This document shows positions 38,513 to 62,500 of a stretch of DNA of 64,000 nucleotides, piece by piece (positions within the stretch are counted from its first letter, which is position 1; each line of letters opens with the position of its first letter). The stretch is from Mizuhopecten yessoensis. Its lineage: Eukaryota. The position numbers were made by a program. The stretch covers positions 746,036 to 810,035 of the forward strand of contig NW_018408703.1 in NCBI RefSeq assembly GCF_002113885.1, in the 5' to 3' direction.

Positions 38513-41500
38513 NGAACATATTAATTAAATTAAAAGAGCTATGGCGGAAAACTGCCCGTATTTCCCTAAGTCGGCAGTTTTGGAAACGGAAAAAAATACT
38601 GATGAGTAAATAACTTGAAGTAGCGAACATGCATGGAATATATATAAAACCAATTGAATATGAATTTTTGAACTGTTGAGATATTCGGTATTGTTAATAT
38701 AATACTGCAAATATAGCCATATTCACTATATCTATGAAAGTGACGGGGTTTCCCAGACTTATTTTTTTATTGATATCTAAATAACATACATATTGGTTTA
38801 TTTTCTATGGAATCATGTCAACACATCCCTGTACGCGTGTACAGGACAGTCATACGCTTTGTAGGTACATGTAAGACATCATTTAAATGATATTTATGAA
38901 TTGTTTTACCCTCCAACTGGCACTAGTATTCTAATCCATTAATCCAGGAAGACTGCAGCACAAAGTAAAGAACGCAATACACGTGTAAGATATGCTTTTC
39001 GAAAATTATGTAATTTTACCATTCTAAGGAAGAACAAAATCAAGATGTGTACTTTTTAGGAAAGCGGGTAACAGCATGACTTTGGCAGTAGTAATGATAA
39101 TTAAATTCTTTCAAACTTGTTGGTAATGATTGTACGATCTTGTGTTTACGCAAAATAAGCATTTTGTTGAGTCTTTATCGGGAAACGTATATATTAATAG
39201 CCATGACCTTAAATTCGTCCGTTTAAAATAGTCTATTCTTAGACACGGGATTCCGTTAGAGCTACCTGTATACAAATACCTGAGGACGCGTCATAGCAAT
39301 GCACGGTTGGACGCGCGCACTAGCGGGTTATAACTTTGGGGAAATAGGCATAGCAACCCGCCATAGCCCTTTGCCATCTTGTATATCTATAAATTAATTT
39401 GTTATTGGGAAAGGGCAACTTGTGTCCATTCCCTTTTATATGATTCAAATCTACACTATAGATACTTAATTTTCGAACGCAAAGATGTATAAGTCTCCGA
39501 AAAAAAACCCGTCCTAACTGTACATTTAATGTTAATATTTTTATCCGTCTGATTTATCCGTTAACTGGAACAGCATTCCCTATACGTTCCTTCATTAGTG
39601 TCTCAGTCGTTAACGCTTGTCAGGTAGCCAGACTACGTGTCAGTGACAAGCTCAAACGATGTAACAAGTTGTCAGATGGCGTAACAAGCTGTGATGACGT
39701 AACAGAAACACAAAAGTAACGTAGAAAAGCCAAGCCAATTTTGCAAGTAGACCAACAGTAATTAAGTTCTTAATATTTTATTGTCAAAATTGTTTCGCGG
39801 AAGATAAGGCCACGTGCACGTTTTACGAATCTTCCAGTCCTCTTAAAAAATAAACATGTACGTGATTACAATACAAACCAAACAATTTTAAGATAATTAA
39901 TACTGGGAATGAAATATCATTTAAAAAAAGGAATCATAATTAAGAGAAGGAAAAAAAAGAGATCGAGATATTGTTCAGAAAAATATTTGACAAAGCTAAC
40001 ATGACTGGTACGGCCCCTGTATGTCACGACACGTCAGTATGGATATATATTTCTCTCATTTCAGCCACCAGAATAAGCTTAGAAACTATGAAAATGCGTT
40101 TGGACTTGCCACCATTTTGAAACTATCAATTTTCCCCCTGAACTTTTTAGACGAAAACGAATTAGCCAGCCGTATTAAGCATTTTCCAAATTCCACACGA
40201 GGGTTTTTCAAATTTGGTAAAACCCGAGGCATTGCCAAGGGTTTTGCCAAATTTGAAAATCCCGAGAGTGGAATTCCCTATCCTACACATGAAAGAGTAT
40301 TTTTCTATCATTTCCCTGAGTGTAAGATAGAGCTGTCCAAGGTAAAAACTTTACTAGGACAGCAGCTGTTTTTACGGGTTTTAGGTAATAAGCAAGAAAT
40401 AGAATCCATCCCTGATGTGAGGTAAGGATAAGGTTATTCAAACCCTCGGGATAAAATATTGAGCAAAAGACCATCGGGTCTCCTGCTCAATATTTTATCC
40501 CTTATGTTTGAATAACCTTATCCATACCACACATCAGGGATGGATTCTATTATTCTCGCACATCAGACAGAGATATCCCAATATCATAATATAAGAATTT
40601 GATGAATATATATATATAATTGTGGAGTAATGCTTAATAGTATGTACATTTATGACACAAAAGTATTGATATTTATAGATACATAAGGAAAAAAATATTA
40701 GGCCGTCATACGAATTCTTCGTCTGGTATGTCAGCCATTAAACTTAGCATCCGTTGAAATTTCTAAAAACAAAACATTTTAAAGTACAATTTTTGCATTT
40801 CATATGATTAAAATTCAGGAAAATAGCCGTTTCAAGCATTTACAATATATATGTAATTGTAATTTTATTAAAAGGAGCCTTAGAAAGCATTTTTAAGCGG
40901 GTCTGTGTTCAGCTTACAATATGGCGCCTGTTCCAAACCTGTGCTTTTATGTCTCGATTGAATCGCATTTTTATCGATATTAGAGAATATAAGTATATAT
41001 GTTTGATACATCATAGGAAAGAAAAATATTAATTCTTTACTTTAATGTAACAAAAGTATTAGCTGTAAATGTAATTTTATTAAAAAGGAGCCTTAGAAAG
41101 CATTTTTAAACGGGTCTGTGTTTAGCTTACAATATGGCGCCATTTCCAAACCTGTGCTTTTATGTCTCGATTGAATCGCATTTTTATTGATATTAGAGAA
41201 TATAAGTATATATATTTGATACATCATAGGAAAGAAAAATATTACTTCTTTACTTTAATGTAACAAAAATATTAGCTGTAAATGTATGTATATGTAAGTT
41301 TTACATCTGTACATAAAATTCACCATCATCAAATCAAAATATCGGTAGAAAATGATTCGAATACACTATTCTCCCCAAATTTTGACATTTTTGCTTTTCA
41401 TAAATAAGATCTTTAAATAAAATGCTTTAATATCGCTGTAACTAAAATATTGTAGGGTTTGTAACGAATGAACTGTATACGATTGAAGTAAGGTAAGAAA

Positions 41501-59500: not shown

Positions 59501-62500
59501 TGAGTGAAATGAGAACGGGTATATATAGTATTTTTTTGCTCTATGTACGTATCTGCCAAATGTTTCAGATGAAGTATTCCGGTTTAAAGAACTGAATTAA
59601 AACCATACAGCATTTATCTATGTATGTGTGTGCGCTAATATGTCACTCATGTCAGGAATCTGACACATTCCTTGTCTGGTAAGCCATGACGTAATCAGTC
59701 CCGACTCCCGGGGCTACAACCTGCGTCCGGTCCATTAATATCCGGTAGTCGTCTGATCTATAGTCCCCGAGGGAACTGACATACTGACGTCACACGCACC
59801 CACATACACACCGGTACGATCGAGACGTCTCGTTTAAATATCACCGCGTGATTTATCCAGTTATGTGTTGCAGGCAAGAAAATGTATCTATTTACCCACA
59901 ACAGAAATTCTTAAAAGAATGAAATATTGATTGCTAAACACGTTGGATAATGTGTTAAAATTTATCAAAATAATGTCGAAAAAGAACACTTCTTCTTCGA
60001 AGCAATTTTGAACATGACAACTTTTCGACATGATCAAACGAAGATATATTCGGCAATATTAACATTTAAAGGCGATGGTTACAAATGACGTGCATCATGT
60101 TTCGTTGTATATAACTGAAACATTATCATAATATCACAATAATGATTGCGAGAACGCCATAGTTTGTTCGTGAATTTCGTCCTCAGTTCAGTTAATTCCC
60201 GAGAGCCGTTCGACTCGTGTTAAATGTCAAACAATAACACCATGTAATACACGTACAAGAGATTATCATACAAATTTAAACTAATTATGTGGAGGGTTAG
60301 CTTACAAAGTACATTTCCATATCAGACATTGATTTCTCTAATTTTCTCGTAGCACAATATAAACACTTTCCGAGAATACATAATTCATTTACATTATTAG
60401 TACGTAATAATTTCGTTAACTTAAAAACAGGACTTCTGTGATAAAATCGCTTGATATATTTACGTCTCAGGTCTTGATATAATGGATATTTAGGATGAAG
60501 TGAAATTCATCTTCTATATCACCAGAAGCACATCGAGTACATGATCTATTCTGTCGAACAACGTTGTTCCGTCTACCCACTACAATATTTAAGTTATGAG
60601 ACGACAATCTAAAACTTGTAATAAGACATGTGTTCTATCAATAAGGTGCTGGTATAAATAACCTTTAAATGACATGTTAAAAGCTTTGGTAATTTAGGAC
60701 GCGTCCGGTTTTAGTGACAGAGGGAGGTCGGTGAACGATAAACAAACGACCAGTGCGTGGCGATTGATCCATGTGGGACTCGAACCCGCGACCCAGTGGT
60801 GGAGGGCCAGTGATCATAAATGGAAGATGCCTTACAATCGCCTGAAGCCAAAGTAAATAGATAGTAAATAACTGAAAAAGAATTACTTGATCCTTTAACA
60901 AAATTTGTTTAGTATCAACACGGACTTGGATAGCTAGTTCCGTGGCATCAAGTTAAAATAATAAAACAGAGTTCTATAAGAATAATTTAATTGTCCTAAA
61001 ATAATTCAAATTGTTACAGTTTGAGGCGTTTTTAAAAAACCGAATTAAAGTTAATGTTAATATACAATTTTTAATTGAAGTTTGTTTGTAAATATATAAT
61101 AGATACAGCACGAATCCCTCATACAAGGGTGCTAGTAGCTTACATTTCAAGAATGATATCCGTTTCATATACACCCCATCTTTTTGGTGGTGTTTTTAGA
61201 TGCCGCGAGGACCTTAAGGTGGCTCCAAACATCGTCATCAGCGTCCATTTTCGTGACGTACTTCCGGAAAAAGTCCAGCTCGGACTCAATTATCTTGATC
61301 GAAATGTGCATGTACACCGTGTCGTCATTTCCGTATTGCGTATCGGGCATTCAATATCGTAGTGCAAATTATAGTAACACCTGGGCCGTTTTCGTTTAAA
61401 CGGTCAAATCGATCGGACCACTGTTGTTCGTTTATTAAATAAGGTCGGACCTAGTAATCTGATGCTGCTTTCAGGCGAGTCTTGAGAAAGACTTGCAAGG
61501 CCTGCATACACATTTGCAGGTCCGCCAGGATTTATACCCTAAATTGTTACATTTATAAACGGTCAAACCGATTGTTCCGCATAAACGAACAGGCCCCTTG
61601 TAAACAATAGTACACATGCGTGCCGATATGTTAACACCCGATAATCACACGTCCTTCAGGAATAAAGCTTTCCAATTCATAGACATAAACAGACTCACGG
61701 GAACACAGTGTCATGAGACCAGACGACCTCAAGAAGGTCATATAGGAAACACATGGAATGCGGACGTACCGACCTCGCATGTGCATATCACGCGCTTACA
61801 CGAGTTCATAAGCTCGATGTCGTTACGATTTTCGCTGTAAATCGTGTTTACGAATGTAGTCTGCTTACTCTGTTAAAATAATGTTTTGTAAAATATAAAG
61901 ATACCTATGAAATACATGTGTGAGTGCACGTGAGAACGGCATACCATGCGATAGCCTCTGGTCACATATGTACCTGAAATGTAATTATAAATATACCGTG
62001 AGTTAGCGGACTCTGGAATGATGTCGAAAGTGTACATGACTGAGGGTAATTTGTTTCCATTAAAGAACAATAAATTGATAATTTTTTGATATCATATTTT
62101 TGATTTATTTCGATCATTTTTGTTATATGTAAACAGAGACAACTGGCATTGTGTAAATGTCATCCCTCTGCAAAAAGTTCCGATTTTTTTCGAAAAAGAT
62201 AACTCTCACCCGGATCAAAGTGATTGTAAAATGTAAAATAAAATAATTATAGAGCCATTGTGTATATTTTGTTCGATTTCCCATTCTATATGTATAGATC
62301 TTTGTGTCCTGTTTGCTTTTAGCTTGTAGATAATCACTTTTATCCGTACAAATTCAATAAAAAACACTTTGTGTAACATGTGTTACATATTTTGCGACAA
62401 ATAAAATATTCGTAGGGTTAATAAGAAATGCTTCTTTTCATTTTATTTTTGTTGTTATTGTTCCGAACAATGATACACACAAAAAAAACCGGAAAGTATT

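What the first reader, a model, noticed from the sequence alone, without database searches (positions are those of the whole stretch)
40583..60360. H1-only tandem gene array with long TE-built spacers
Seen: three intact H1 genes, periods 9.7 and 7.5 kb, with no H2A/H2B/H3/H4 anywhere in the window. Copies differ by 10-12 aa, each has private substitutions, yet all are exactly 185 aa while the spacers are full of indels. Known: canonical H1 usually clusters with core histones, and mussels have separate orphon H1 clusters. Inference: an independently amplified specialised linker-histone family evolving by birth-and-death, possibly germline- or embryo-specific.
Basis: partly seen in the sequence, partly recalled or inferred. 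Interest (0 to 1): 0.65.

Follow-up and report, generated by a model that had tools for sequence, protein, structure and literature searches.

The report
Three-copy scallop histone H1 gene array
A scallop genome segment carries three working-looking tandem copies of a linker histone H1 gene with the usual signals of cell-cycle histone genes; bivalves are already known to keep H1 genes apart from the other histones, so this is mostly ordinary, except that the genes belong to a fast-evolving scallop-only H1 branch.

Summary
Three intronless 185-aa H1 genes lie on the + strand (41647-42204, 51315-51872, 58809-59366). They sit in a colinear segmental tandem repeat bounded at 40584 and 60360: two full units plus a 2.4-kb partial unit. 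No core-histone domain occurs in 0 of 119 window ORFs.

Each copy keeps an H1-box, a TAAATA, a CATTC cap-like motif, a histone 3' stem-loop (Rfam 33-34.3 bits) and a purine-rich downstream element. There is no AATAAA.

Selection is purifying: dN/dS is 0.21-0.36 (p about 1e-4), and the CDS has 0 indels where 7.2 are expected. Synonymous divergence of 8-12% shows no homogenisation.

The host is a pectinid scallop; the nearest named protein is Mizuhopecten yessoensis H1-delta-like (93%). The genes fall in a pectinid-only H1 clade (95/96 support, long stem), distinct from the conservative mollusc H1 that sits next to H3 in oysters.

"Independent amplification by birth-and-death" is therefore supported. 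"Germline/embryo-specific" has no sequence support: the signals and the K-rich, R-poor composition fit replication-dependent somatic-type H1. "TE-built spacers" is shown for only about 2.2 kb of unit-private insertions. H1-only tandem clusters are already known in Mytilus. Interest is low to moderate.

The parts
40584..60360 (+). Whole tandem array: L-A-B-A-B-A-R. A is about 2.4-2.7 kb and holds the gene. B is the spacer, 7195 and 4994 bp.
   Evidence: Self-BLAST; junction sequences
40584..50437 (+). Repeat unit 1 (9854 bp)
50438..57929 (+). Repeat unit 2 (7492 bp)
57930..60360 (+). Partial repeat unit 3 (2431 bp). It ends about 1 kb 3' of the gene.
41647..42204 (+). H1 gene copy 1, 185 aa, intronless
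51315..51872 (+). H1 gene copy 2, 185 aa
58809..59366 (+). H1 gene copy 3, 185 aa. It is the only copy whose exact protein is in the public protein collection.
41495..41505 (+). H1-box-like 11-mer of copy 1. TAAATA lies at 41574-41579 and the CATTC cap-like motif at 41600-41604. A 13-bp deletion private to copy 1 lies between box and TAAATA.
51148..51158 (+). H1-box-like 11-mer of copy 2 (TAAATA 51240-51245; CATTC 51268-51272)
58642..58652 (+). H1-box-like 11-mer of copy 3 (TAAATA 58734-58739; CATTC 58762-58766)
42244..42289 (+). Histone 3' stem-loop of copy 1 (stem 42249-42264) with purine-rich downstream element at 42277-42285
   Evidence: Rfam RF00032, 33 bits, E=3.4e-6
51912..51957 (+). 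Histone 3' stem-loop of copy 2 (stem 51917-51932; downstream element 51945-51953)
   Evidence: Rfam 33 bits
59407..59452 (+). Histone 3' stem-loop of copy 3 (stem 59412-59427; downstream element 59440-59448)
   Evidence: Rfam 34.3 bits, at or above the gathering score of 34
40852..41286 (+). 213-bp tandem duplication private to unit 1, upstream of gene 1
   Evidence: TRF
47552..49123 (.). Unit-1-private 1572-bp insertion. It has imperfect terminal inverted repeats and an 8-bp target-site duplication (47544-47551 and 49124-49131; single copy in unit 2 at 56773). It is a non-autonomous DNA transposon.
   Evidence: (I1)
49853..50046 (.). Unit-1-private insertion of about 194 bp, unclassified
45183..45973 (.). 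Unit-1 block not homologous to the unit-2 block at the same site; unclassified
54859..55494 (-). Unit-2-private block holding a non-LTR retrotransposon endonuclease fragment (ORF 54888-55463, minus strand)
   Evidence: Pfam PF14529 52.9 bits, PF03372 41.7 bits
46109..46386 (.). 66-bp minisatellite, 4.2 copies in unit 1. The unit-2 counterpart at 55630-55775 has 2.2 copies.
   Evidence: TRF

Best explanation
This is a small tandem array of three functional, intronless linker-histone H1 genes of the replication-dependent type, in a pectinid scallop genome.

How each gene works (inferred from motifs):
- Each repeat unit is a self-contained histone gene.
- An H1-box about 150-160 nt before the ATG, a TAAATA at -73 to -75 and a CATTC cap-like site at -47 would drive transcription.
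- The mRNA would end not in poly(A) but by cleavage after a 6-bp/4-nt stem-loop about 45 nt past the stop codon. Cleavage would be guided by a purine-rich downstream element.
- This couples output to S phase.

The protein (shown): a classical tripartite lysine-rich H1. It has a short N-tail, a winged-helix globular domain at residues 24-98 of the H5/H1.0-like kind, and a K/A/P-rich C-tail with CDK-type sites.

How the array arose (shown, except the mechanism):
- A segment of about 7.5 kb (gene plus spacer) was duplicated in tandem. The mechanism is inferred to be unequal crossing-over or a microhomology-mediated event.
- The copies then diverged by about 4-6% without homogenisation.
- Selection kept all three reading frames, their length and their regulatory motifs intact.
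- Spacers meanwhile took up private TE insertions, a minisatellite change and many indels.

The genes belong to a pectinid-specific, fast-evolving H1 clade that is also present at other loci of the genome.
For: Genes and domain.

Array architecture.

3' end:
- The stem-loop is identical in all three copies.
- Rfam Histone3 scores are 34.3, 33 and 33 bits against a gathering score of 34, with E between 1e-6 and 3e-6.
- There is no AATAAA within 330 nt 3' of any stop codon.

Promoter:
- The H1-box 11-mer occurs exactly 3 times in 64 kb, once per gene at the same position.
- 0.15 matches are expected, and 0 of 100 shuffles reach 3.
- TAAATA and CATTC are conserved.

Selection:
- dN/dS is 0.36, 0.25 and 0.21, with pooled Fisher p=1.3e-4.
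- There are 0 indels in the CDS against 7.2 expected, P=7e-4.

No concerted evolution: dS is 0.08-0.12, against non-coding substitution divergence of 4.3-6.4% upstream.

Composition: K 56-57, R 0-1, and three [ST]P.K sites in each copy.

Globular domain: the best solved relatives are H5 (E=1.2e-15) and H1.0 (2.8e-14). H1.2 and H1.4 score 1e-8 to 1e-7.

Phylogeny.

Precedent: H1-only tandem repeats separate from core-histone clusters in Mytilus (passages of PMC4106214).
Against: - Two of the three stem-loops score 1 bit below Rfam's gathering cut-off. The first stem pair is A-U where the Rfam consensus has G-C.
- Copy 1 has a 13-bp deletion between the H1-box and TAAATA, so its promoter may be impaired.
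- A conserved ATTAAA lies 230-238 nt after each stop codon. A polyadenylated transcript, as described for Mytilus 'orphon' H1, is therefore not excluded.
- No CCAAT box was seen by eye in the 170 nt upstream of the ATG.
- No expression, 3'-end or protein data were available, so 'replication-dependent' rests on motifs alone.
- The exact proteins of copies 1 and 2 are absent from the 15-billion-protein collection. This shows lack of annotation, not lack of function.
- The globular domain is unusually diverged: 48-62% identity to other spiralian H1s, where the conservative scallop type has 71-79%. That would also fit a specialised role.
Confidence: 0.72

Rival explanations
1. The genes are a specialised H1 variant family (germline-, oocyte-, sperm- or embryo-specific). 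On this reading the pectinid-specific clade diverged because it took on a stage- or tissue-restricted chromatin role. The conservative H1 type would serve somatic cells.
For: - The window genes lie in a pectinid-only clade on a long stem (0.30 changes per column, support 95/96).
- Their globular domain is only 48-62% identical to other spiralian H1s. A second pectinid H1 type (P0064, P0074, P0122) is 71-79% identical to oyster, Mytilus, Mactra, Lottia and Capitella H1.
- That conservative type is the one fused to H3 in oyster gene models.
- The family has several deep paralogues in one genome (P0002, P0007, P0061).
Against: - All three genes keep the stem-loop and H1-box.
- Arg is 0-1 of 185 residues, so they are not protamine-like.
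- From recall, oocyte and cleavage-stage H1s of sea urchin and vertebrates are polyadenylated and lack the stem-loop.
- All M. yessoensis H1 proteins retrieved (P0002, P0007, P0061/P0121 and window copy 3) belong to this clade. No M. yessoensis protein of the conservative type appeared in the best 120. This clade may therefore be that species' ordinary H1.
- No expression evidence was available either way.
Confidence: 0.17
2. The array is an assembly artefact: allelic haplotigs or collapsed and expanded repeats were mis-joined, so the true locus has one or two copies.
For: Bivalve genomes are highly heterozygous (recalled). Read depth could not be examined. The array ends in a partial unit.
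Against: - There are three copies, not two.
- Substitution divergence between units is 4-6%, rising to 13% in the 3' flank of unit 3, with 29 indel events in the flanks.
- Units carry private insertions with their own target-site duplication.
- There is no N inside the array; the N runs are only at 7274-7500 and 38513.
- Homology stops sharply at 40584 and 60360 instead of continuing into the flanks, as mis-joined haplotigs would.
Confidence: 0.04
3. One or more copies are young non-functional duplicates (incipient pseudogenes) that have not yet picked up disabling mutations.
For: - Copy 1 has a 13-bp promoter deletion.
- The exact proteins of copies 1 and 2 are not in public protein sets.
- dN/dS in the C-terminal tail reaches 0.70 for pair 1-3.
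Against: - At dS 0.08-0.12 the copies are not young.
- dN is below dS in every pair (p=0.021, 0.00097, 0.00014). There are 0 indels against 7.2 expected, and no stop codons.
- The stem-loop and H1-box are identical in all three copies.
Confidence: 0.07

Closest known systems
Mytilus H1-only tandem gene clusters ('orphon' H1). Drabent et al. 1999 and Eirin-Lopez et al. 2002/2004 are known here only as cited in passages of PMC4106214, PMC5550673 and PMC6210712.
   Same: - A bivalve with H1 genes repeated in tandem on their own, apart from the core-histone units.
- The globular domain is H5/H1.0-like.
- A histone stem-loop is present.
- The title of Eirin-Lopez 2004 proposes birth-and-death evolution with purifying selection.
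   Different: - There are only 3 copies here and the array ends inside the window. From recall, the Mytilus clusters are high-copy and FISH-visible.
- The unit is longer (7.5-9.9 kb) and irregular.
- There is no AATAAA after the stem-loop, only an ATTAAA at +230-238. Mytilus orphon H1 genes are described as carrying a polyadenylation signal (PMC6210712 passage).
- No 5S rDNA is interspersed: Rfam found only the Histone3 element in the window.
- The protein is not close to Mytilus H1, with 48% identity in the globular domain.
Conservative mollusc H1 adjacent to core histones (oyster gene models fusing H1 to H3: P0040 in O. edulis, P0130 and P0134 in C. virginica), and its pectinid counterparts P0064, P0074 and P0122
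   Same: Same family (PF00538), similar length, the same tripartite build, and a K-rich tail.
   Different: - The window genes are not linked to any core histone within 64 kb.
- They fall outside this group in both trees.
- They share only 57-59% globular-domain identity with it.
Vertebrate H5 and H1.0 (solved structures 7xvm, 1hst, 6hq1)
   Same: They are the best-scoring solved relatives (E from 1e-15 to 1e-13). The winged-helix globular domain aligns end to end.
   Different: - From recall, H5 and H1.0 are replication-independent, polyadenylated replacement variants rich in Arg.
- The window genes carry a stem-loop and have 0-1 Arg.
- There is a three-residue insertion in the globular domain relative to H5 (alignment).
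Sea-urchin 'late' H1 genes and mammalian somatic H1 subtype clusters (recalled, not checked in any call)
   Same: These are few-copy, irregularly spaced, mutually diverged H1 genes that keep replication-dependent signals. They evolve by birth-and-death rather than homogenisation.
   Different: They belong to different phyla. No orthology is implied and none of this was tested here.

Membership tests
Linker histone H1/H5 family (Pfam PF00538) | Winged-helix globular domain matching the family profile above the curated cut-off | tested here: met
   87.9, 91.6 and 87.7 bits against a cut-off of 22.4, residues 24-98, profile positions 1-74 of 74. There are 24 solved H1/H5-type chains at E<=0.001.
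Linker histone H1/H5 family (Pfam PF00538) | Tripartite build with a lysine-rich, low-complexity C-terminal tail | tested here: met
   N-tail 1-23, globular domain 24-98, tail 99-185. K is 56-57, A 37-38 and P 16-17 of 185 residues.
Replication-dependent (canonical-type) histone gene | Conserved 3' stem-loop shortly after the stop codon | tested here: met
   Rfam RF00032 scores 34.3, 33 and 33 bits (gathering score 34), E from 1.1e-6 to 3.4e-6. The stem starts 45-46 nt after the stop codon and is identical in all 3 copies. Two of the three are 1 bit under the curated cut-off.
Replication-dependent (canonical-type) histone gene | Purine-rich downstream element for U7 snRNP after the cleavage site | tested here: inconclusive
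   A conserved purine-rich 9-mer lies 7 nt beyond the ACCCA in all 3 copies. No scallop U7 sequence was available to test pairing.
Replication-dependent (canonical-type) histone gene | No intron and no polyadenylation signal | tested here: met
   Each gene is a single uninterrupted ORF. There is no AATAAA within 330 nt 3' of any stop codon, but a variant ATTAAA lies at +230 to +238 in all 3 copies.
Replication-dependent (canonical-type) histone gene | S-phase-coupled expression | not testable with these tools
   No expression data were accessible.
H1-specific promoter | H1-box (AAACACA core; motif recalled) about 100 nt upstream of the TATA/cap region | tested here: met
   The 11-mer containing the core occurs 3 times in the window, once per gene, at -148 to -163 from the ATG and about 70-90 nt before TAAATA. 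0.15 matches are expected by chance.
Mytilus-type 'orphon' H1-only tandem cluster | Tandem repeats holding H1 genes only, separate from core-histone units | tested here: met
   There are three H1 genes in a colinear repeat. 0 of 119 ORFs in 64 kb hit a core-histone family.
Mytilus-type 'orphon' H1-only tandem cluster | Stem-loop together with a polyadenylation signal (as stated in the PMC6210712 passage) | tested here: inconclusive
   The stem-loop is present. There is no AATAAA, only an ATTAAA about 165 nt beyond the stem-loop.
Mytilus-type 'orphon' H1-only tandem cluster | Orthology or close kinship with Mytilus H1 | tested here: not met
   Globular-domain identity to the M. trossulus H1 (P0186) is 48%. 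The window genes sit in a pectinid-only clade.
Protamine-like sperm proteins (PL-I type) of bivalves | Arginine-rich composition (feature recalled) | tested here: not met
   R is 0, 1 and 0 of 185 residues; K is 56-57.
Oocyte/cleavage-stage H1 variants | Polyadenylated mRNA without a histone stem-loop (feature recalled) | tested here: not met
   The stem-loop is present in all 3 copies.

The most novel reading that the evidence does not exclude
Pectinid scallops may carry an undescribed, fast-evolving, lineage-specific H1 subfamily.
- It has at least three deep sublineages and at least four loci in M. yessoensis, of which this array is one.
- It kept replication-dependent signals while its globular domain drifted to about 50-60% identity with all other spiralian H1s.
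- It either replaced the conservative, core-linked H1 in this species or supplies stage- or tissue-specific H1 subtypes, as sea-urchin late H1s or mammalian H1 subtypes do.
- Two of the three genes in this array appear to be missing from public protein sets.
Probability: 0.35. Interest if true: 0.45.

Novelty: new member of a known kind. Interest (0 to 1): 0.3.

Why it matters
- It adds a sequence-resolved example, in scallops, of the bivalve habit of keeping H1 genes outside the core-histone units.
- It is a clean small case of birth-and-death evolution. The units have dated, private TE insertions. The coding sequence is frozen in length while the flanks accumulate indels.
- The more useful lead is the pectinid-only H1 clade. 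If it is the working somatic H1 of scallops, linker histones have turned over faster in this family than in other molluscs. If it coexists with the conservative type, scallops offer a simple system for H1 subtype specialisation.
- Practically, two apparently intact H1 genes here seem unannotated.

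Tried and rejected
- Fourth or degenerate H1 copies: tblastn of the three proteins against the window at E<=10 found only the three genes plus two chance matches at E>5.
- Core histones: Pfam on 119 ORFs >=70 aa gave 0 core-histone hits.
- 5S rDNA, tRNA or snRNA interspersed as in Mytilus: Rfam at gathering threshold found only one Histone3 element in the 64 kb.
- TE content of the spacers:
  - Pfam on 105 further spacer ORFs of 40-69 aa gave 0 hits.
  - BLASTN of the array against the rest of the window found only one 60-bp shared piece.
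  - tblastx and blastn of the four unit-private blocks against each other and the window gave self-matches only, plus the TIR of the 1572-bp element.
  - Most of the spacer therefore stays unclassified.
- Gene conversion or homogenisation was rejected, because dS (0.08-0.12) is not lower than flank divergence.
- Placing all pectinid H1s in one clade: the AU test does not reject it (p=0.416). The divergent clade may therefore stem from a duplication inside Pectinidae rather than from an old split.
- Literature on scallop linker-histone genes: searches found none. One search failed on a too-short term and was re-sent.
- A phylogeny including sea-urchin H1-delta, vertebrate H1.0/H5 and PL-I was not made. 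The PDB search stands in for H5 and H1.0 only.
- Supplementary tables of PMC12210499 and PMC13525598, which may list scallop histone loci, were closed.

Full report
**1. What is in the sequence**

Between 40584 and 60360 the + strand carries three ATG-to-stop ORFs of exactly 185 aa, at 41647-42204, 51315-51872 and 58809-59366. ATG-to-ATG distances are 9668 and 7494 bp. tblastn with the three proteins finds no further copy, intact or degenerate, anywhere in the 64 kb.

Each protein matches Pfam Linker_histone (PF00538) over residues 24-98 at 87.7-91.6 bits, against a cut-off of 22.4. The best solved relatives are H5 (7xvm_U, E=1.2e-15) and H1.0 (6hq1_A, 2.8e-14). They score well ahead of H1.2 and H1.4 (1e-8 to 1e-7); 24 distinct PDB sequences match at E<=0.001.

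Composition is classical lysine-rich H1. Of 185 residues, K is 56-57, R 0-1, A 37-38 and P 16-17. All three copies have three S/T-P-x-K sites, at residues 7, 136 and 158.

**2. The array**

Self-BLAST shows that not only the genes but the whole spacers are colinear.
- Unit 1 is 40584-50437 (9854 bp).
- Unit 2 is 50438-57929 (7492 bp).
- A partial unit 3 is 57930-60360 (2431 bp).

The layout is L-A-B-A-B-A-R, with A (gene plus about 0.9-1.1 kb upstream and about 1 kb downstream) present three times and B (spacer) twice. Both outer boundaries and the B|A junctions sit at short AATAT-type strings. In AT-rich DNA this is only a weak hint of microhomology-mediated events.

The 2.2-kb difference in period comes from features private to unit 1:
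- a 213-bp tandem duplication at 40852-41286;
- a 1572-bp insertion at 47552-49123, flanked by an 8-bp target-site duplication that is single-copy in unit 2, with imperfect terminal inverted repeats (30 of 45 end positions match; 87.5% over 32 nt by BLAST). This is a non-autonomous DNA transposon;
- an insertion of about 194 bp at 49853-50046;
- two extra copies of a 66-bp minisatellite (4.2 against 2.2 copies).

At one site the two units carry unrelated blocks. Unit 1 has 45183-45973, which is unclassified. Unit 2 has 54859-55494, which holds a non-LTR endonuclease fragment (PF14529 at 52.9 bits, PF03372 at 41.7 bits).

Beyond these, 0 of 105 spacer ORFs of 40-69 aa hit Pfam. Only one 60-bp piece of the array recurs elsewhere in the window. 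'TE-built spacers' is therefore shown for about 2.2 kb of roughly 16 kb of intergenic DNA. The rest could not be classified without a mollusc repeat library.

**3. Nothing else histone-like**

Among 119 stop-to-stop ORFs >=70 aa from the whole window, none hits a core-histone family. Hits above curated cut-offs were:
- the three H1 genes;
- three CFAP91 exons on the minus strand (6724-8681);
- one reverse-transcriptase fragment (36606-36995);
- the endonuclease fragment;
- one hit on a minisatellite ORF that is probably spurious.

Rfam at gathering thresholds finds only a histone stem-loop in the 64 kb. There is thus no 5S rDNA or tRNA interspersed with the genes.

**4. Gene signals**

3' end:
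- The 3' flanks of all three genes hold an identical 6-bp stem and 4-nt loop. It starts 45-46 nt after the stop codon, is followed by ACCCA, and a conserved purine-rich 9-mer lies 7 nt further on.
- Rfam Histone3 scores 34.3 bits for copy 3 and 33 bits for copies 1 and 2, against a gathering score of 34, with E from 1e-6 to 3e-6.
- The one-bit shortfall of copies 1 and 2 comes from the model's 3' flank, where they differ from copy 3 at two positions.
- There is no AATAAA within 330 nt of any stop codon. A variant ATTAAA is conserved at +230 to +238.

5' end:
- An 11-mer containing the H1-box core (motif recalled) occurs exactly three times in the window, once per gene at -148 to -163 from the ATG. 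0.15 matches are expected, and 0 of 100 shuffles reach three.
- A TAAATA at -73 to -75 and a CATTC at -47 are also conserved.
- Copy 1 alone has lost 13 bp between the H1-box and TAAATA.

These are the hallmarks of replication-dependent histone genes. That they work this way is an inference from motifs.

**5. Selection and mode of evolution**

- Pairwise differences are 12, 10 and 11 aa, and 22, 24 and 26 of 555 nt.
- dN/dS is 0.36, 0.25 and 0.21 (globular domain 0.13-0.24; tail 0.21-0.70).
- dN is below dS in each pair (Fisher p=0.021, 0.00097, 0.00014; pooled 1.3e-4).
- The three-way alignment of segment A has 29 indel events in 2235 flanking columns and none in 558 coding columns. 7.2 would be expected in the coding columns, Poisson P(0)=7e-4. 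Only 4 of the 29 flank indels are multiples of three.
- Substitution divergence is 5.6-6.4% far upstream, 4.3% in the proximal 200 nt, and 3.9-4.7% in the CDS.
- dS is 0.08-0.12. Synonymous sites are thus not homogenised. The copies diverge freely while the protein, its length and the regulatory motifs are held.

This fits birth-and-death with purifying selection, although no dead copy is present here.

One oddity is that the 3' flank of unit 3 is about twice as diverged from units 1 and 2 (12.7-12.9%) as those are from each other (6.8%). This hints at a two-step history, such as unequal crossing-over within A. I did not resolve it.

**6. Whose genes, and which H1**

- The closest named protein is M. 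yessoensis 'histone H1-delta-like' (P0002, 184 aa, 93%), encoded on another contig. Next come three Pecten maximus H1s (66-69%) and two further M. yessoensis H1s (P0007, P0061; about 60%).
- The host is therefore a pectinid scallop.
- The exact protein of copy 3 is in public sets. Those of copies 1 and 2 are not found among about 15 billion proteins, so they are probably unannotated.

Trees:
- One search used 41 rows (3 window copies plus 38 named proteins; unnamed rows left out) and 170 columns. The three copies form a clade (98/89) with P0002 as sister (100/99). They lie inside a pectinid-only clade of 9 rows (96/91).
- One search used the globular domain only: 39 rows and 82 columns. The bootstrap had not fully settled. 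The same groups receive 97/82, 100/96 and 95/96, on a stem of 0.30.
- One search used all 191 rows, including unnamed ones (FastTree, 123 columns). The clade holds only those nine plus a longer model of the P0061 locus (support 76).

A second pectinid H1 type (P0064 from P. maximus; P0074 and P0122 from Ylistrum) is conservative. Its globular domain is 71-79% identical to oyster, Mytilus, Mactra, Lottia and even Capitella H1. The window's domain is 48-62% identical to them.

The conservative type is the one found fused to H3 in oyster gene models (P0040, P0130, P0134, carrying PF00538 plus PF00125). It is therefore the core-linked kind.

The AU test does not reject a single origin of all 12 pectinid rows (p=0.416). 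The divergent clade may thus be a pectinid-internal offshoot that sped up. No M. yessoensis protein of the conservative type appeared among the best 120. Whether that species lacks it, or it is simply unassembled or unannotated, is open.

**7. Comparison with what is known**

- Passages of PMC4106214 state that in Mytilus edulis the core histone repeat is independent of the H1 genes. The H1 genes are themselves repeated in tandem (citing Drabent 1999 and Albig 2003), and FISH places linker and core clusters on different chromosomes.
- PMC13525598 (passages) lists 'separated H1 genes' as a recurring organisation.
- PMC12153100 (passages) speaks of frequent loss of H1 from the ancestral repeat unit.
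- PMC3003622 (passages) cites a core-histone cluster in the scallop Chlamys farreri.
- PMC12210499 (passages) surveys core histones only in 28 molluscs including M. yessoensis, where clusters are dispersed on chromosome 5.
- PMC6210712 (passages) notes the polyadenylation signal of Mytilus 'orphon' H1 genes.
- The primary Mytilus papers themselves were not read.
- I found no paper on scallop linker-histone genes. Subscription journals and supplementary files were out of reach.

An H1-only tandem array in a bivalve is therefore a known kind of thing. This one differs in being tiny (three copies), irregular, lacking AATAAA and 5S genes, and encoding a protein that is not close to Mytilus H1.

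**8. Verdict**

Local, independent amplification and birth-and-death hold. Specialisation for germline or embryo is unsupported, and the replication-dependent signals and somatic-type composition argue against it.
- Assembly artefact and pseudogene readings are unlikely.
- The most novel reading still open is that scallops have an undescribed, rapidly evolving H1 subfamily that supplements or has replaced the conservative spiralian H1.

**9. What stayed unchecked**

- read depth;
- expression;
- a phylogeny with H1-delta, H1.0/H5 and PL-I sequences;
- supplementary tables of the two histone surveys.

Noticed in passing
window 6724-6957, 7885-8154, 8445-8681 (minus strand): Three ORFs match successive parts of Pfam CFAP91 (profile positions 97-130, 35-98 and 1-39; 28.4, 94.1 and 58.9 bits). 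These are exons of a cilia/flagella-associated protein 91 gene about 32 kb upstream of the array. They were scanned as separate ORFs only.
   Followed up: partly
window 41647-42204 and 51315-51872: The exact proteins of H1 copies 1 and 2 are absent from the 15-billion-protein collection, whereas copy 3 is present (NCBI, UniRef, nr). Two apparently intact H1 genes are probably unannotated.
   Followed up: partly
window 41506-41573 (copy 1 promoter): Copy 1 alone lacks 13 bp, including a TATATA string, between the H1-box and the TAAATA. The effect on promoter strength is unknown.
   Followed up: no
window 59453-60360 versus 42290-43242 and 51958-52935: The 3' flank of unit 3 is about twice as diverged from units 1 and 2 (12.7-12.9%) as those are from each other (6.8%). 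The 5' flanks and CDS are equidistant. This suggests a stepwise or recombinant history that I did not resolve.
   Followed up: partly
window 42442-42447, 52108-52113, 59596-59601: A variant poly(A) hexamer, ATTAAA, is conserved in all three units 230-238 nt after the stop codon. It could be chance in AT-rich DNA, or a second 3'-end mode like that of Mytilus orphon H1.
   Followed up: no
window 26415-26925: A 27-bp minisatellite is open in frames on both strands (ORFs of 160 and 164 aa made of 9-aa repeats). Its Pfam DUF6470 hit (39.3 bits) is probably spurious.
   Followed up: no
window 35728-37417 (+): A run of ORFs includes an RVT_1 fragment (36606-36995, 37 bits). This is a decayed retroelement about 3-5 kb upstream of the array, unrelated by BLAST to the endonuclease fragment inside unit 2.
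   Followed up: partly
window 5554-5719, 7105-7269 and 54139-54198: A short dispersed repeat flanks the N run (7274-7500) region, and a 60-bp piece of it recurs in the unit-2 spacer. It may be a SINE- or MITE-like element.
   Followed up: no
window 19253-19566: A tandem duplication with a period of about 92 bp and 89% identity.
   Followed up: no
proteins P0040, P0130, P0134 (oyster gene models): Public oyster gene models fuse an H1 to an H3 (PF00538 plus PF00125). They are probably mis-merged neighbouring genes, which incidentally shows H1-H3 adjacency in oysters.
   Followed up: partly
proteins P0015 and P0168: H1/H5-family proteins are labelled as bacterial (a Kangiellaceae MAG and a Solemya velum gill symbiont). 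Their globular domains are 58% and 73% identical to the mollusc H1 queries, so they are most likely host DNA in bacterial bins.
   Followed up: no
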